Source: an uncultured Candidatus Saccharibacteria bacterium (GTDB lineage Bacteria > Patescibacteriota > Minisyncoccia > UBA6257). Taken from it: 64,000 nt of DNA. This document shows, piece by piece, positions 5,808-64,000 of this stretch. The position numbers were made by a program, and so were the translations under genes. Every line of letters starts with the position of its first letter. The first letter of the stretch is position 1. The notes beneath the pieces are model-generated. The model had not been told where the DNA came from and ran no database searches. It saw only the letters and a list, made by a program, of their open reading frames with translations. The DNA lies in NCBI GenBank assembly GCA_964479005.1, contig CAYZJA010000001.1, positions 64,001-128,000 of the forward strand, written 5' to 3'.

Positions 5808-6940
5808 CAAAAATCCTATTAGTAGAACCAAATTTTCCTATACCACCTAAAAGTAAAAATCATAGGGATTTTTTACCTATTGGATTATTAAAACTAGCAA
5901 ACTATCACAGAGGAAAGGGGGATAAAATTAAACTTGTTAGGGGAAATTATTATTTCCCCGATTTTTATCCCAGTCAGGTAAAAATAACTTCGCTTTTTAC
6001 ATATTGGTCTAATTATGTGTGGGAAAGTGTAAAATTCTACAAAGAAAACTATCCGAAAGCCAAAGTGATAGTTGGCGGCATTTATGCATCGTTAATGCCG
6101 GAGCATTGCAAAAAATCAGGTTGCGACGAAGTATTCATTGGAGTGGATAAGAACGCTGAAAAGTATGAACCAGCCTATGATTTGGTAAATGTAGATTACC
6201 AGATAATGCATACAAGCAGAGGTTGTATTAGAAGATGCAAGTTTTGCGGCACATGGAAGATAGAGCCGGAATTCAAATATAAAAAAAGCATAAAAGACGA
6301 GATTTGTAGCAATCGAATAATCTTTTATGATAATAATCTCTTAGCCAATCCTTATATAAAAAATATTTTTGAAGAGCTAAAGAATTCTAAATATAATGGC
6401 AGGGTTGTATATTCTGAAAGTCAATGTGGCATTGATGGTAGATTGCTTACGCCAAAACTAGCGAAATTGCTAAAACAAGCGAGATTTCTGAATCCGAGAA
6501 TTGCATGGGATCATAGTTATGGTCAGCGAAAAATGATAAAAAAACAAATTGATATGTTGGTAGATGTCGGTTATCCCGTTAAAGACATCTATATTTTCAT
6601 GATCTATAATTTTGAACAAGATTATTATGAAATGCTGAATAAACTTAGGCAATGCAAAAAATGGGGTGTCCAGATTGCGGATTGTAGATATCGACCCTTG
6701 GATCAAACTTTTGATAATTATAATCCTCGAATAAGCCAGACAAATAAAGATTATTATATTCATTCTAAATGGAGTGATAGGCAAATTAAACTTTTCAGAA
6801 AGAAAGTCAGACAACAGAATATTATGATAAGACATGGGTTTGATTTTTACAGTAAAGAGTTGGAAAGATTGGGGACGAAGAAAAGAAATAAAAAAAATAG
6901 TGTCAAATCTATCCTAAATAACCAAAAGGTCAAAAATTAA
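5804..6940 (+). CDS. radical SAM enzyme with an N-terminal B12-binding-like domain
   Basis: CIRRCKFC (CxxxCxxC) follows a Rossmann-like N-terminal domain (KILLVEP...LPIGLLKLANY). Start overlaps the upstream stop by 4 nt. Confidence 0.6.
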   Translation: MTKILLVEPNFPIPPKSKNHRDFLPIGLLKLANYHRGKGDKIKLVRGNYYFPDFYPSQVKITSLFTYWSNYVWESVKFYKENYPKAKVIVGGIYASLMPEHCKKSGCDEVFIGVDKNAEKYEPAYDLVNVDYQIMHTSRGCIRRCKFCGTWKIEPEFKYKKSIKDEICSNRIIFYDNNLLANPYIKNIFEELKNSKYNGRVVYSESQCGIDGRLLTPKLAKLLKQARFLNPRIAWDHSYGQRKMIKKQIDMLVDVGYPVKDIYIFMIYNFEQDYYEMLNKLRQCKKWGVQIADCRYRPLDQTFDNYNPRISQTNKDYYIHSKWSDRQIKLFRKKVRQQNIMIRHGFDFYSKELERLGTKKRNKKNSVKSILNNQKVKN

Positions 6941-6979: not shown

Positions 6980-8296
6980 ATGGGAAAAGAAGAAACAAAA
7001 AAAGAAGAAATGAAACCATGTCCTTTATGTGGGACAATGCTTTTATATGATAAATGGTTACAAGTAGTAGGTGTATATGAAGAACAGCAGAAATATAAAA
7101 AACAATTGGAATTAGAATTAAGCAAAGCCAAAAAGCAAGAATTAAAGCTAAAAGAAGAATATAAAAAAATTCGTCAGAAAGAAAAAGAAATACGGACTCA
7201 GTACGCTCTTAAAAAATCAAAACTTAGCCAGCAGCATAAAACGCAATTAGAAAAACTCCAAAAAAGATTTGAAAAAGAAAAACGAAAAGTGCTGAATCAG
7301 GCTAAAAAGGAAGGCATTAAAATCGGTTTTGAGAAAGAACAAGCAAGATTAAAAAAGCTCAAACAACAACAAAAGAAGATCAAAAAGCAATTAGAAAGAC
7401 AAAAACAAATAGAATTAAAACGAATTTATCGTAAAGGAATTGGAATGGGGGAAGAAAAACAGAAAGCAAGAACAGAAAAAGTAAGTCTGATGGCTGAGAG
7501 ACGTCGTAAAGAAAGGGACAAAGCAATGGAGAAAGTAAAACAACTTGAGGAAATGATGAAACAAGGTACAACACCACAGATAGAAGGGTTTAATTTTGAG
7601 AAAGAGTTTGCTAAGCAACTCAAGCAAAAATTTCCAGAGGATGACATAAAGCCAACTGGACATAAGGGGGATATTATCCATACAGTTCAAGCAAAAGAGG
7701 AGAAAATTGGAAAAATTATCTATGAGTGCAAAAAAACTAAAGAATTCGAAAACAAATTTATTGAACAAATTCGACGAGATAAAACTAGAGTAATTGCAGA
7801 TTATGGAGTAATTGTTACTTGGACCACAAAAGAGAGTAAGCAGAATTTTTGGTTGGCGGGAGATATAATTATAGTTCATCCCTATGGGGCCTTAGATATA
7901 GCAACACTTCTCCGCGAAACACTGATACAAATGTATACACTTAAGTTATCAAGGGCAGAGTTTGAGACCAAGGGTAAAGCTATTCTTAAATTTATGCAAT
8001 CTGAGGAATTTAGAACAAGAATTCAAAATTCTATTGTTAAAAGCAGAGAAGCTTATGAATCTTTAAAGAAGGAGATTACAACGCATTTTAATACTTGGGA
8101 TAAGAGAGCCAAGATATACGAAAGTATCTATAAAAACACAAATATTATTCAGCGTACCGTTCAATACGTATTACTTTATAGTAAGATTCCTGAAAATTTA
8201 CCCGAAACAAAAGGACTTCCGCCACTCCAAATATTACCCAAAAAAGAATCAAAAGAGCAAGAAAAAGAGCAAAATGAACAAAACAGACAAAAATAA
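6980..8296 (+). CDS. coiled-coil protein with an N-terminal CxxC zinc ribbon and a C-terminal PD-(D/E)xK-like nuclease-fold domain (DUF2130-like architecture)
   Basis: CPLCGT near the N-terminus. About 180 aa of K/E-rich coiled coil. The C-terminus has GDIIH...IIYECKKT, a D...ExK pattern. Confidence 0.4.
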   Translation: MGKEETKKEEMKPCPLCGTMLLYDKWLQVVGVYEEQQKYKKQLELELSKAKKQELKLKEEYKKIRQKEKEIRTQYALKKSKLSQQHKTQLEKLQKRFEKEKRKVLNQAKKEGIKIGFEKEQARLKKLKQQQKKIKKQLERQKQIELKRIYRKGIGMGEEKQKARTEKVSLMAERRRKERDKAMEKVKQLEEMMKQGTTPQIEGFNFEKEFAKQLKQKFPEDDIKPTGHKGDIIHTVQAKEEKIGKIIYECKKTKEFENKFIEQIRRDKTRVIADYGVIVTWTTKESKQNFWLAGDIIIVHPYGALDIATLLRETLIQMYTLKLSRAEFETKGKAILKFMQSEEFRTRIQNSIVKSREAYESLKKEITTHFNTWDKRAKIYESIYKNTNIIQRTVQYVLLYSKIPENLPETKGLPPLQILPKKESKEQEKEQNEQNRQK

Positions 8297-57160: not shown

Positions 57161-57164
57161 CTAT

Positions 57165-57588
57165 TGACGATTGAACCTATAAGCCGAATTCTGTATCCTG
57201 TTAAACAGGACGATAGTCATTTATCTAGCCCTGAAATTACTCTCAGGGTCAAGCGGCCACTTTCTGACAAATGTCAGAACACGAGCCTTGCACCCAGTAA
57301 GGATTTAGCCGTTTCATTCTTGAAATTGCTTTCAAGACTCACCCTAATTAAAAAATAATTAGGGTGTTTTGAACTTTTCAGTTCAAAACGTCTCTGTTCG
57401 CACCTCTATTCCAGTTGTAAATCCGTCATTAGCGTTACCGCTAAGAGGCAAAAACTGGAGCGATAGCTGTTAGCTATTACCTTTTACCAACTTTGTTTTA
57501 GGCAAAATTGGTGGTGTTCGGACTTTCCTCCCCGCCTAAGTTTTGCGAACAAAATTTTGGCGGGGTAACTACCCAGTTCAATCGAGAA
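57165..57588 (-). ncRNA. rnpB: RNase P RNA (bacterial type)
   Basis: The minus strand carries GGAGGAAAGTCCGAACACC (P4 5' strand; compare AGGAAAGUCCGGGCUCC) and ACAGAATTCGGCTTATAGG (P4 3' strand; compare ACAGAACCCGGCUUAUCGG). A P1 helix pairs CGATTGAACTGGG with AGGTTCAATCG. GC-rich relative to the flanks. Confidence 0.7.
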
Positions 57589-62731: not shown

Positions 62732-63124
62732 ATGAAAAAATTATTATTGATTATAATTAGTTTAGCTCTTATTCTTCTCTTTTCATCAAGGATTAGGGAG
62801 GATTTGCAGACATATCGATTATTAACTGATGAAGTAAAAAGCCTAGAGCAAACAAAAGGCAATATTGAAAAAGAGAGGGAAAAGACTGAGCAACTTTTGG
62901 AAAAGGAAAAGCAAGAAGAGACACTTGAGCAGGCAGCGCGTTTAATGTTAGGACTTAAAAAAAGCGGGGAAGAAGTTATAATGATTTTACCTCCTAAAAA
63001 TTCTTCTGATTCCGAACTTCAAATTAGTACTTCTTCTGATGTTTTACCTGAAAAATCTTTTAATTCCTTTTTTTCCAAAATTTCTCAAATTTGGTATAAT
63101 TTAATAAGAAAATTAAAAAAATAG
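62732..63124 (+). CDS. FtsB/DivIC-like septum-formation initiator family protein
   Basis: N-terminal TM, coiled coil, and LEQAARLMLGLKKSGEEVIMI, which matches the DivIC/FtsB C-terminal motif. Confidence 0.5.
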   Translation: MKKLLLIIISLALILLFSSRIREDLQTYRLLTDEVKSLEQTKGNIEKEREKTEQLLEKEKQEETLEQAARLMLGLKKSGEEVIMILPPKNSSDSELQISTSSDVLPEKSFNSFFSKISQIWYNLIRKLKK

Positions 63125-63129
63125 ACGTT

Positions 63130-63336
63130 GCGGGCATCGTATAGTGGCAGTACGTAACCTTCCCAAGCCCCCACACCAAACGAGTATCATTGCGAGATTA
63201 GTATAGTGGTAGTACATCACCTTCCCAAGGTGAAGGTGCCGGTCCGATTCCGGTATCTCGCTCCGTTTAAAATTTAAAATACTCGTTGTGGTGTGGGGGC
63301 AAGGTTAAAGTGTGGGTTCGATTCCCATTGTCCGCT
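63130..63336 (+). tRNA. tRNA-Gly(CCC) interrupted by a ~136-nt intervening sequence at the 37/38 position
   Basis: 5' part 63130-63165 (GCGGGCA acceptor, D-arm GTAT/AGTGGCA/GTAC, anticodon stem TAACC, loop TTCCCAA). 3' part 63302-63336 (GGTTA, T-arm GTGGG-TTCGATT-CCCAT, acceptor TGTCCGC). The ends of the intervening sequence form a ~20-bp helix (CCCCCACACCAAACGAGTAT / ATACTCGTTGTGGTGTGGGGG). Confidence 0.5.
63192..63264 (+). tRNA. tRNA-Gly(CCC), complete, lying inside the intervening sequence of the outer tRNA
   Basis: Acceptor GCGAGAT/ATCTCGC. D-arm GTAT-AGTGGTA-GTAC. Anticodon stem TCACC/GGTGA with loop TTCCCAA. T-arm GCCGG-TCCGATT-CCGGT. Confidence 0.7.
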
Positions 63337-63419
63337 CAAATTATTTTTTCGTTACTATCCAAAAAGATTGACGAAGTTTCAAGTGCAATATGGTTTTGTA
63401 TAATCTTTTTACATTGCTC

Positions 63420-63448
63420 TTGACAAATAGTTTTACATCGCATATACT
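63420..63448 (+). promoter_or_regulatory. sigma70-like promoter (TTGACA - 17 nt - TATACT)
   Basis: Near-consensus hexamers with a 17-nt spacer, about 40 nt upstream of the ATG at 63490. Confidence 0.45.
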
Positions 63449-63489
63449 GGAGTTAGGTCGTAATAATTAACTATTTCATCACCAAAGCT

Positions 63490-63777
63490 ATGGCTACAAA
63501 AAAATTTAGTCCAACAAGAACAATAACGCAAAAAAACCTCGAAAATGTACCTGGCGACAAGCCAGGTGTCTATCGCATCAAAAACGCGTCAAATGATATT
63601 CTTTACATAGGTAAAGCAAAAGGAGGTAGATTAGATGACAGAATCGCTGAACATAAAGGACAATTCCAAGGTGGAACGAAATTCCAGTATAGATTAACTC
63701 ACAGCAAAGATGCCGCCGAGCGATTAGAGCGTAAAGAAATTCGTGAATGGAAACCGCCTAGAAATAAAGATAAATAA
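63490..63777 (+). CDS. small stand-alone GIY-YIG nuclease domain protein
   Basis: PGVYRIKNASNDILYIGKAKGG.L..R...H. Confidence 0.6.
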   Translation: MATKKFSPTRTITQKNLENVPGDKPGVYRIKNASNDILYIGKAKGGRLDDRIAEHKGQFQGGTKFQYRLTHSKDAAERLERKEIREWKPPRNKDK

Positions 63778-63780
63778 TTT

Positions 63781-64000
63781 ATGCCCTCTTCGTTAAAAAC
63801 ATACGCGAGCATAGAAGACATCAATAGAATTTATATGAGGGCTAATGCGCATAGTCTTACCGAAAGAATTAATAAGGATAGTGGTCTTGAACAAGATGTT
63901 TTATACATAGAAGCCTTTTTATTGCAAGCAACGTTATTGGAAGGCGTTCTTGTTAATCTTGGTCTAAGATTATTAGAAAGCAAAAAAGAATTAACTGGGC
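63781..64000 (+). CDS. hypothetical protein, 3' end cut by window edge; paralogue of the HEPN-like protein at 11906
   Basis: FLLQATLLEGVLVNLGLRLLESKK resembles FVLQMLFLEGTLVFIVKNLLNQKR from 11906-12358. Confidence 0.3.
   Translation, partial: MPSSLKTYASIEDINRIYMRANAHSLTERINKDSGLEQDVLYIEAFLLQATLLEGVLVNLGLRLLESKKELTG

What the first reader, a model, noticed from the sequence alone, without database searches (positions are those of the whole stretch)
63130..63336. tRNA-Gly gene whose anticodon-loop intervening sequence contains a second complete tRNA-Gly
A canonical tRNA-Gly(CCC) can be assembled from 63130-63165 and 63302-63336, with all four stems, a TTCGATT T-loop and a matching acceptor. 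Its loop is interrupted by ~136 nt at a position compatible with the canonical 37/38 intron site. The two ends of the intervening sequence form a ~20-bp helix (CCCCCACACCAAACGAGTAT with ATACTCGTTGTGGTGTGGGGG). Between the helix strands sits a second, intact tRNA-Gly(CCC) at 63192-63264. This is too short for a group I intron. It resembles archaeal split or intron-containing tRNA arrangements, where complementary leaders bring the halves together. It could be a bacterial tRNA intron carrying a nested tRNA. It could be a two-piece tRNA produced when RNase P and RNase Z excise the inner tRNA. Or it could be a recent insertion of a tRNA copy that inactivated the outer gene.
Basis: seen in the sequence. 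Interest (0 to 1): 0.85.

Follow-up and report, generated by a model that had tools for sequence, protein, structure and literature searches.

The report
Mobile element overwrites a tRNA gene
The "tRNA inside a tRNA" is real, but it is not an intron: a 132-bp mobile DNA element carrying its own glycine tRNA has landed in the anticodon loop of the resident glycine tRNA gene, and related elements have done the same at the same spot in several other tiny-genome bacteria.

Summary
The outer halves (63130-63167 and 63304-63336) join into a valid tRNA-Gly(CCC). A second intact tRNA-Gly(CCC) lies at 63192-63262, between two strands of a 21-bp helix. The host is a bacterium of the candidate phyla radiation (CPR), with a bacterial RNase P RNA.

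The intron reading is not supported. At least twelve related lineages have an uninterrupted 72-nt tRNA-Gly(CCC) at the same lepA-divIC locus, identical to the joined outer halves in L016 and L051. The window differs from them by 132 bp plus a duplicated CAAG.

The helix strands are terminal inverted repeats (CCCCCACACCAAACGAGTAT and its inverse). They belong to a family of 62-303-bp elements found on 25 other metagenome contigs, in unrelated flanks, with 4-bp duplications. There is no bulge-helix-bulge motif and no group I core.

Copies carrying a tRNA sit at the same anticodon-loop position of tRNA-Gly(CCC) genes in at least four other lineages. All are co-oriented with the target gene. One is nested in two levels. 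In three lineages the outer gene has decayed or lost its 3' half while the inner tRNA stays intact.

Best reading: a MITE-like element (miniature inverted-repeat transposable element) that disrupts and replaces the resident tRNA. The enzyme and the basis of the site specificity are unknown.

The parts
63072..63100 (+). Promoter-like site (TTTCCA, 17 nt, TG-TATAAT) 30 nt upstream of the outer tRNA. It is the inferred driver of transcription through the whole composite.
   Evidence: 10 of 12 hexamer matches with a TG extension. No + strand promoter-like site lies inside the element. The TATAAT is conserved in 5 of 6 orthologous loci.
63130..63167 (+). 5' half of the resident (outer) tRNA-Gly(CCC): acceptor, D arm, 5' anticodon stem and loop, up to the left CAAG copy.
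   Evidence: Identical to positions 1-38 of the intact gene in L016 and L051.
63164..63167 (+). Left copy of the duplicated target CAAG (tRNA positions 36-39).
   Evidence: Comparison of the filled site with the empty site in L016: L016 positions 6244-6247 match both sides of the insert.
63168..63187 (+). Left terminal inverted repeat, CCCCCACACCAAACGAGTAT.
   Evidence: The same 20-mer, or a variant with one or two changes, ends 16 distinct elements elsewhere.
63192..63262 (+). Cargo (inner) tRNA-Gly(CCC), inferred to be the functional gene. Acceptor GCGAGAT/ATCTCGC, discriminator U73, no encoded CCA.
   Evidence: 64.6 bits. Across five cargo copies the cloverleaf is 100% paired, with 8 pairs changed on both sides.
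63279..63299 (+). Right terminal inverted repeat, ATACTCGTTGTGGTGTGGGGG (one extra base relative to the left arm).
   Evidence: The same one-base asymmetry is present in the cargo-bearing copies of L030 and L032.
63300..63303 (+). Right copy of the duplicated target CAAG.
63304..63336 (+). 3' half of the resident (outer) tRNA-Gly(CCC): 3' anticodon stem, variable region, T arm, 3' acceptor strand and discriminator U.
   Evidence: Identical to the intact gene in L016 and L051.

Best explanation
A 132-bp non-autonomous mobile DNA element (63168-63299) has inserted into the anticodon loop of the resident tRNA-Gly(CCC) gene. It has 20/21-bp terminal inverted repeats, is flanked by a 4-bp target duplication (CAAG), and carries a complete foreign tRNA-Gly(CCC) as cargo. 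The insertion destroys the resident (outer) tRNA.

The cargo tRNA has no promoter of its own. It lies in the same orientation as the resident gene and is transcribed from the resident promoter. In the transcript the inverted repeats pair into a 21-bp helix, which sets the inner cloverleaf apart. RNase P, 3' trimming and CCA addition then mature the inner tRNA, possibly after RNase III cuts the helix. The inner tRNA takes over reading of GGG codons. With time the outer halves are lost.

**Shown:** the inverted repeats and the duplication; empty sites in close relatives; membership of a dispersed element family; recurrence at the same tRNA position in other lineages; decay of the outer gene elsewhere; structural conservation of the cargo tRNAs.

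**Inferred:** that a trans-acting transposase moves the element; the whole RNA-processing route; and that the inner tRNA is charged and used.
For: 1. **Empty sites.** Relatives with DivIC 94-84% identical (L050-L057), relatives with LepA 96-67% identical (L016, L012-L015), and L030's own relatives L058 and L059 carry a single 72-74-nt tRNA-Gly(CCC) at the same lepA-divIC locus. In L016 and L051 it is identical to the joined outer halves. The filled site equals the empty site plus 132 bp plus a second CAAG.
2. **Element family.** Of the 26 metagenome contigs that carry the repeat pattern, 25 hold family copies and one (L024) looks like a chance match. After removing duplicates they give 16 distinct elements of 62-303 bp, counting the window copy. 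These have the same ends, different interiors and different flanks. Identical 4-bp duplications occur at six independent sites: CAAG three times, TTTA/TAAA twice, TTCA once.
3. **Recurrent targeting.** Cargo-bearing copies or their relics sit immediately after TTCCCAAG (mutated in two relics: TTCCTAAAG in L030, TTCCCAAA in L061) of a tRNA-Gly(CCC) gene in L029, L030, L061 and twice in L032. All are co-oriented with the target gene. L030's closest relatives L058 and L059 are empty, so that event is independent. L032 lies in a different gene context.
4. **Fate of the outer gene.**
   - L029 and L061 have lost the right repeat and the outer 3' half.
   - L030's outer anticodon loop carries an extra 20-nt palindrome and a mutated anticodon.
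   - The outermost gene in L032 survives only as a 5' half.
   - The inner tRNA is intact in every one of these cases.
5. **Cargo tRNAs are foreign and constrained.** The five aligned cargo copies are 67-97% identical to one another and 64-79% identical to the intact resident genes. Four of the six cargo tRNAs share the acceptor GCGAGA(T/G). Their cloverleaf is 100% paired, with 8 compensatory pairs.
6. **Expression context.** There is a promoter-like site upstream of the outer gene only. The minimum-energy fold keeps the acceptor, D and T arms of both tRNAs plus the helix. RNase P RNA is encoded at 57164-57584.
Against: - No autonomous copy or transposase bearing these repeats was found. The four loci without an evident right-hand repeat were examined.
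- The window contains no second copy of the repeat, so how the element entered this genome is not demonstrated.
- Several family members have non-identical 4-bp flanks, for example TTCA...CAAG three times. This is untidy for a simple staggered-cut model.
- A loose target preference of the form (C/T)NN(G/A) cannot by itself explain why every cargo-bearing copy seen lies in a tRNA-Gly(CCC) anticodon loop.
- There are no expression data, so use of the inner tRNA and death of the outer are inferences.
- One cargo (L061) is not of the GCGAGA type. L030's cargo has U73 where its host's resident tRNA has A73, so charging is not assured.
Confidence: 0.8

Rival explanations
1. The element is excised at the RNA level. 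It would be a new kind of bacterial tRNA intron, in which the 21-bp helix brings the halves together and an endonuclease plus a ligase (for example RtcB) restore a functional outer tRNA, while the inner tRNA is released as a second product.
For: The insertion point is compatible with the canonical 37/38 site, because CAAG is duplicated. The outer halves in the window are undamaged and identical to functional orthologues. The fold keeps the outer acceptor, D and T arms. Patescibacteria do carry many tRNA introns, though these are group I (PMC13011429).
Against: - There is no bulge-helix-bulge motif: a single 5-nt bulge on one strand only.
- No group I core is present and the insert is too short for one.
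- The host is bacterial, and no splicing endonuclease is known in bacteria (general knowledge).
- The outer gene decays or is half-deleted in L029, L030, L061 and L032 while the inner stays intact. This argues that the outer gene is not maintained by selection.
- The same repeats flank elements in protein genes and intergenic DNA, with target duplications. That is a DNA-level signature.
- The intact state of the outer halves in the window is explained by a recent insertion.
Confidence: 0.04
2. The locus produces a functional two-piece tRNA. After RNase P and 3' processing remove the inner tRNA, the outer halves stay joined through the helix and act in translation.
For: The helix is stable and the outer arms are intact. 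Split tRNAs joined by complementary leaders exist in Nanoarchaeum (general knowledge).
Against: - The anticodon CCC would sit in a 5-nt bulge next to a 21-bp helix instead of a 7-nt loop. Known split tRNAs still need endonuclease and ligase (general knowledge).
- Relatives lose the outer 3' half without losing the inner gene.
Confidence: 0.02
3. The DNA insertion is real, but it spreads by homing or site-specific recombination rather than by a transposase with loose target choice. One route would be an endonuclease or recombinase that recognises the tRNA-Gly(CCC) anticodon stem-loop, acting on a circular form in which the two repeats abut around CAAG. Another would be gene conversion between tRNA-Gly alleles.
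For: - Every cargo-bearing copy lies at the same tRNA position, from at least four independent events. This is far more specific than the 4-bp flanks of cargo-less copies.
- Joined end to end, the repeats around CAAG would form a perfect palindromic site (reasoning from the sequence).
- A GIY-YIG nuclease gene lies 150 nt downstream in the window.
Against: - Cargo-less family members with the same ends sit at unrelated sites with other 4-bp duplications.
- The GIY-YIG gene belongs to a separate 2.57-kb island that is absent from L029, which has the element.
- Window-to-L029 identity does not rise near the tRNA, so there is no sign of imported flanks.
- The outer halves of L030 are native to its own lineage. 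Conversion from a distant donor would therefore need crossovers within about 36 nt.
Confidence: 0.12
4. The arrangement is an assembly chimera or a local tandem duplication of the tRNA gene.
For: None beyond the presence of two genes with the same anticodon.
Against: The region is identical in 11 fetched loci from nine separately assembled contigs. The inner tRNA is only 75% identical to the outer. The inverted repeats and the CAAG duplication are not products of tandem duplication.
Confidence: 0.01

Closest known systems
Bacterial MITEs and palindromic elements (e.g. Neisseria Correia elements, Rickettsia palindromic elements)
   Same: Short size, no transposase, terminal inverted repeats that fold into a long hairpin, short target duplications, and many copies in varied contexts. 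Some copies are in-frame insertions in protein genes: L027 has a 72-nt insert with an open frame.
   Different: This subfamily carries a complete tRNA gene. It is found only inside the anticodon loop of the same isoacceptor's gene, co-oriented with it, and it replaces what it breaks. I found no description of such a cargo or target. The comparison with named MITE families rests on general knowledge, not on a sequence test.
Integrative elements that target tRNA genes (phage, ICE and island tyrosine integrases)
   Same: They use a tRNA gene, often its anticodon loop, as the landing site, and they compensate for the damage with element-borne tRNA sequence.
   Different: Those elements carry an integrase and supply only the 3' part downstream of the crossover, leaving one intact chimeric gene. 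Here both resident halves are left behind, the element supplies a whole separate tRNA, it has inverted repeats, and it encodes no protein.
Dada DNA transposons of eukaryotes (PMC3706591)
   Same: DNA transposons with terminal inverted repeats that insert at a fixed position inside tRNA or snRNA genes.
   Different: Dada elements are eukaryotic, encode a DDE transposase, make 6-7-bp duplications, rely on multicopy targets and carry no replacement gene. The present case is bacterial, with a 4-bp duplication, a probably single-copy target and a replacement cargo.
Group I introns in Patescibacteria tRNA anticodon loops (PMC13011429)
   Same: Same phylum-level host group and the same general location (anticodon loop). 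Both cause tRNA genes to be missed by standard annotation.
   Different: No group I core is detected. The insert is 132 nt, most of it a tRNA. It has terminal inverted repeats and a target duplication. There is no evidence of splicing.
Archaeal bulge-helix-bulge introns and split tRNA genes
   Same: An intervening sequence at or near position 37/38, with a helix formed by flanking complementary sequence.
   Different: The host is bacterial, there is no bulge-helix-bulge geometry, the insertion is absent from close relatives, and the outer gene decays in other lineages.

Membership tests
MITE-like non-autonomous inverted-repeat transposon | Terminal inverted repeats | tested here: met
   Arms of 12 + 9 nt, 100% complementary, with one bulge. 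The same ends occur on 16 distinct elements.
MITE-like non-autonomous inverted-repeat transposon | Short direct duplication of the target | tested here: met
   CAAG on both sides in the window, single in the empty sites. Identical 4-bp flanks occur at six independent sites, but flanks are non-identical at about half of the elements.
MITE-like non-autonomous inverted-repeat transposon | Presence/absence polymorphism between close relatives (empty sites) | tested here: met
   The site is empty in L016, L012-L015 and L050-L057, and for the L030 event in L058 and L059.
MITE-like non-autonomous inverted-repeat transposon | Multiple copies in unrelated genomic contexts | tested here: met
   25 further metagenome contigs, with copies in intergenic DNA, pilin-like genes and tRNA genes. 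Only one copy lies in the 64-kb window.
MITE-like non-autonomous inverted-repeat transposon | A cognate autonomous element encoding a transposase with the same ends | tested here: inconclusive
   None was seen in the fetched loci. The collections could not be scanned again, and the rest of the 551-kb genome was not readable.
Archaeal/eukaryal-type spliced tRNA intron | Bulge-helix-bulge motif (or a relaxed form) at both exon-intron junctions | tested here: not met
   The predicted fold has one 5-nt bulge on the 5' strand. The 3' junction lies in a continuous helix.
Archaeal/eukaryal-type spliced tRNA intron | Host encodes a tRNA splicing endonuclease (EndA/Sen) | not testable with these tools
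   Only 64 kb plus flanks of a 551-kb genome was available. The host has a bacterial-type RNase P RNA.
Group I intron in a tRNA gene | Group I catalytic core detectable by covariance model | tested here: not met
   No RF00028 or related match at the gathering score, or at E <= 10 over 62900-63600.
Split tRNA gene (Nanoarchaeum type) | Halves encoded as separate transcription units joined through complementary leaders | tested here: not met
   The halves are contiguous on one strand, 136 nt apart, with one upstream promoter-like site. The orthologous genes are unsplit.
Integrase-mediated island at a tRNA gene | Element-encoded integrase and duplication of only the 3' part of the tRNA | tested here: not met
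   The 132-bp element encodes no protein. A complete second tRNA is present and both halves of the first are kept. The separate 2.57-kb island downstream does have an 11-bp direct repeat that includes the tRNA end.

The most novel reading that the evidence does not exclude
The cargo-bearing subfamily may be a genuinely site-specific, self-complementing selfish element: a 'selfish tRNA'. It would home into the anticodon loop of tRNA-Gly(CCC) genes across CPR bacteria, kill the resident gene and substitute its own tRNA. It could be invaded again in turn, giving the Russian-doll nesting seen in L032. Over time the chromosomal tRNA-Gly(CCC) of whole lineages would be overwritten; L060 may be an end state. 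This would be a new mode of tRNA gene turnover and horizontal tRNA transfer, with a targeting mechanism that is not yet known.
Probability: 0.45. Interest if true: 0.78.

Novelty: new variant of a known kind. Interest (0 to 1): 0.62.

Why it matters
- **Annotation.** Apparent nested or intron-containing tRNA genes in CPR genomes can be DNA insertions. The functional gene is the inner one. Annotation and codon-capacity estimates for these reduced genomes depend on getting this right.
- **Mobile elements.** As far as I could find, a miniature inverted-repeat element that carries a working copy of the very gene it disrupts, and is found only in that gene, has not been described. It gives a simple route by which a parasite can occupy a probably single-copy gene in a tiny genome, and by which tRNA genes can move between lineages.
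- **Comparative series.** The loci form a natural time course: empty, filled, half-deleted, decayed, re-invaded. This makes the process testable.
- **General rule.** In-frame copies that lengthen pilin leader peptides suggest that this family persists where insertion does no harm.

Tried and rejected
- **ARAGORN plain intron mode** missed the outer gene. It was found only with overlapping genes allowed or with a forced intron length, and with a different intron boundary.
- **Three scans of viral contigs** gave nothing: the repeat pattern, the cargo tRNA 5' part, and the tRNA/repeat junction. There is therefore no sign of a phage vector.
- **Search for an autonomous copy.** I looked at L024, L025, L028 and L043, the loci without an evident right-hand repeat in the first listing.
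  - L024 is probably a chance match in a GC-rich contig.
  - L025 is a 303-bp element.
  - L028 is a solo end with ordinary neighbouring genes.
  - L043 is cut by the contig end.
- **Recombinational import.** I tested whether the window acquired the nested allele from an L029-like lineage. A 100-nt sliding comparison of the 1.4 kb upstream shows no rise in identity near the tRNA.
- **GIY-YIG gene as a homing endonuclease.** The gene at 63490-63777 belongs to a separate island that is absent from L029, which has the element. It was therefore set aside.
- **All cargo tRNAs as one type (GCGAGA acceptor).** This holds for four of the six, including the window copy. The L061 cargo is GCGGGTA with an encoded CCA, so the claim was weakened.
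- **Literature.** Searches on nested tRNA, MITEs in Patescibacteria, tRNA-carrying transposons and the repeat sequence itself found no prior description. Only open-access text is covered.

Full report
**1. What is in the sequence**

The stretch 63130-63336 reads as follows:
- 63130-63167: GCGGGCATCGTATAGTGGCAGTACGTAACCTTCCCAAG
- 63168-63187: CCCCCACACCAAACGAGTAT
- CATT
- 63192-63262: a complete tRNA
- a 16-nt spacer
- 63279-63299: ATACTCGTTGTGGTGTGGGGG
- 63300-63336: CAAGGTTAAAGTGTGGGTTCGATTCCCATTGTCCGCT

ARAGORN and Rfam call the inner tRNA-Gly(CCC), the latter at 64.6 bits. Joining the outer parts gives one and the same 72-nt sequence for four junction placements, because CAAG occurs on both sides. 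ARAGORN calls this joined sequence tRNA-Gly(CCC). With overlapping genes allowed, intron-aware ARAGORN also reports an interrupted tRNA-Gly over 63130-63337.

The two ends of the intervening sequence are 12 + 9 nt perfect inverted repeats with one bulged base. The 209-nt RNA is predicted to fold far better than shuffled versions (-86 kcal/mol, z = -6.9). The fold contains the helix and the acceptor, D and T arms of both tRNAs. The whole intergenic sequence is identical in 11 fetched loci, which come from nine separately assembled contigs, so it is not an assembly artefact.

**2. Who the host is**

- The window is 32% G+C and encodes a bacterial class A RNase P RNA at 57164-57584.
- It comes from a 551-kb contig of a groundwater-type metagenome.
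- Its LepA and DivIC proteins are closest to those of MAGs labelled Paceibacterota, Pacebacteria or Saccharibacteria.

It is a CPR/Patescibacteria bacterium, not an archaeon.

**3. The orthologous locus in relatives is uninterrupted**

The local gene order is lepA, divIC, tRNA-Gly(CCC). Relatives with LepA 96, 90, 85, 85 and 67% identical (L016, L012, L013, L014, L015) each have a single uninterrupted tRNA-Gly(CCC) there. So do four further lineages with DivIC 94, 89, 85 and 84% identical (loci L050-L057). The L016 and L051 genes are 100% identical to the joined outer halves, and the L016 gene scores 61.0 bits as a tRNA.

In a BLAST comparison, L016 positions 6244-6247 (CAAG) match both flanks of the window's insert. 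The window therefore equals the empty site plus 132 bp plus a second CAAG. This is the classical signature of an insertion with a 4-bp target duplication.

**4. The helix strands are the ends of a mobile-element family**

A scan of metagenome contigs with CCCCCACACC-N(1-2)-AACGAGTAT found 26 contigs. One (L024) looks like a chance match, one (L028) holds a solo end, and one (L043) is cut by the contig end. In most of the rest the motif is paired, 62-303 bp away, with its inverse. In L029 only the left repeat remains (section 5). After removing duplicates there are 16 distinct elements, counting the window copy. They have the same roughly 20-bp ends, different interiors and unrelated flanks.

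Identical 4-bp direct repeats flank the element at six independent sites:
- CAAG in the window, L032 and L046
- TTTA/TAAA in L027 and L037
- TTCA in L033, which is the same locus as L038

Nearly all flanks have the form (C/T)NN(G/A). About half are not identical on the two sides, which remains untidy. No element encodes a protein, and no autonomous copy was found. The window has no other copy. In structure this is a MITE-like family.

**5. Cargo-bearing copies recur at the same tRNA position**

- **L029** (same locus, DivIC 85%): the same outer 5' half, the same left repeat and a 97%-identical inner tRNA. The sequence then runs straight into the normal downstream flank. The right repeat and outer 3' half have been deleted between the two tRNA 3' ends, with CGCTC microhomology.
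- **L030** (a distant lepA-divIC locus): the outer tRNA is split after TTCC(T)AAAG by an element holding a different tRNA-Gly(CCC). The outer loop also carries a 20-nt palindrome and a mutated anticodon. Its closest relatives L058 and L059 (DivIC 88% and 79%) have the intact, uninterrupted version of exactly that outer gene, so this is an independent event.
- **L061** (DivIC 65% to L030): a relic 5' half, a decayed left repeat and then an intact tRNA-Gly(CCC).
- **L032** (a different gene context): a 5' half (A) followed by a repeat remnant. A second tRNA-Gly(CCC) (B) is split after TTCCCAAG by a full element with a CAAG duplication, and that element contains a third tRNA-Gly(CCC) (C). This is two-level nesting.

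In all six cases the cargo lies in the same orientation as the target gene.

**6. The inner tRNA is the one under selection**

The five aligned cargo tRNAs are 67-97% identical to one another. They are 64-79% identical to the intact resident genes. Four of the six cargo tRNAs share the acceptor stem GCGAGA(T/G), whereas residents begin GCGG. L061's cargo is an exception.

On an alignment of five cargo copies, every one of 105 pair cells forms a standard pair. Eight of 21 pairs show changes on both sides, far above both the shuffled and the slid controls. The outer gene, by contrast, is half-deleted in L029 and L061, damaged in L030, or reduced to a 5' half in L032-A. In the window the outer halves are still perfect, which fits a recent insertion.

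**7. How it most likely works**

- **Shown:** the DNA-level insertion.
- **Inferred:** transcription starts at the resident promoter-like site at 63072-63100 (TTTCCA-17-TGnTATAAT), because the element has no + strand promoter-like site. The repeats pair. RNase P, 3' trimming and CCA addition mature the inner tRNA (neither gene encodes CCA). RNase III may cut the 21-bp helix, as it does in Correia-element transcripts (general knowledge). The outer halves are by-products.

Co-orientation in all six cases fits a need for read-through expression.

**8. Why only in tRNA-Gly(CCC)?**

Selection explains part of the pattern. An insertion into another tRNA would be lethal, and a cargo landing elsewhere would be silent and would decay. 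But a 4-bp target preference cannot explain at least four independent hits on one position with no cargo-bearing copy seen elsewhere. Some mechanistic targeting is likely and remains unexplained.

I tested the homing idea. The GIY-YIG gene at 63490-63777 belongs to a separate island that is absent from L029. There is no sign of imported flanks.

**9. Rival readings**

- **Splicing.** An archaeal-type splicing substrate is not present: there is one 5-nt bulge and no second bulge. A group I core is absent.
- **Two-piece tRNA.** The anticodon would sit beside a long helix, and relatives discard the outer 3' half.
- **Artefact or tandem duplication.** Both are excluded.

**10. Comparison with what is known**

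The element works like a bacterial MITE. Like tRNA-targeting integrative elements, it repairs what it breaks, but it does so with a whole separate gene and without an integrase. Eukaryotic Dada transposons also hit fixed positions in tRNA genes but carry no replacement (PMC3706591). Patescibacteria are known for group I introns in tRNA anticodon loops (PMC13011429), and this is not one of them. I found no description of this repeat or of a tRNA-carrying MITE. The search covers open-access text only.

**11. Verdict**

The finding is real. Its headline interpretation (intron or split tRNA) is not supported. The insert is a mobile inverted-repeat element carrying a spare tRNA-Gly(CCC), and it repeatedly overwrites resident tRNA-Gly(CCC) genes in CPR bacteria.

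- Confidence in the disrupt-and-replace reading: about 0.8.
- Interest: 0.62.
- Novelty: a new variant of a known kind.

Noticed in passing
window 63335-64000 and beyond (L001 10604-13196): A 2.57-kb island lies directly after the tRNA-Gly in this genome only. In L016, L013, L014, L029 and L050 the mnmA gene abuts the tRNA. The island encodes a 95-aa GIY-YIG/DUF7508 protein (63490-63777), a 161-aa protein, an HTH + SocA/Panacea antitoxin-like protein of 258 aa, and 111-aa and 147-aa proteins. It is flanked by the direct repeat CTCAAATTATT, whose left copy (63335-63345) includes the last bases of the tRNA. No integrase is present.
   Followed up: partly
L027 2231-2298; L037 5859-5988: Two cargo-less family members sit exactly at the G|F cleavage codons of type IV pilin-like genes. 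In L027 the insert plus duplication is 72 nt, in frame and without a stop. It recreates ...VWG|FTLAEV, so the leader peptide is simply 24 aa longer. In L037 the element supplies an in-frame ATG and ...RLVWG|FTLVEA. The right repeat encodes TRLVWG in that frame.
   Followed up: partly
L032 6706-7137: Russian-doll arrangement. tRNA-Gly 5' half A is followed by the repeat remnant CCCCCGCACCA. tRNA-Gly B is split by a 123-bp element containing tRNA-Gly C. About 150 nt after B lies a repeat-like GGTGGGGGGTGTGGGGGG (about 7119-7137), but no 3' half of A.
   Followed up: partly
L030 3183-3202 (- strand): A perfect 20-nt palindrome, CCTGCCTGCCGGCAGGCAGG, is inserted between the anticodon stem and loop of the already disrupted outer tRNA. 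It is absent from the intact orthologues L058 and L059 and may be another tiny mobile palindrome.
   Followed up: no
L060 1502-1573: A relative of L030 (DivIC 79%) has, at the same locus, a single tRNA-Gly(CCC) of the cargo-like GCGAGAT type. Its neighbours L058 and L059 have the GCGGAAT type, and L060 has no relic half. This may be a completed replacement, or it may be the native source of the cargo type.
   Followed up: no
L029 486-621 (- strand); L061 about 1495-1631: In two lineages the deletion that removed the right repeat and outer 3' half runs exactly from the 3' end of the inner tRNA to the 3' end of the outer one. The junctions share microhomology (CGCTC in L029, CCGCACCA in L061). 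This suggests recombination between the directly repeated tRNA 3' ends.
   Followed up: partly
L026, L027, L041, L046 element interiors: The shortest elements (62-70 bp) share an internal mini-hairpin motif around GCGCAAAGCG, next to an A/T-rich run. They are therefore homologous inside as well as at the ends. The 141-bp elements of L034, L036 and L040 form another subfamily.
   Followed up: no
L025, L035, L038, L041, L042, L048 left flanks: Six of the 16 elements have TTCA immediately outside one repeat. Three of them have CAAG outside the other. Either the target preference is stronger than (C/T)NN(G/A), or the conserved end extends 4 nt further.
   Followed up: no
window 57164-57584 (- strand): The bacterial class A RNase P RNA scores only 110 bits against a threshold of 100, and its L016 orthologue scores 103. 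It appears to be a divergent RNase P RNA, with an ORF-free 420-nt gene between the RNase H and DUF4012 genes.
   Followed up: no
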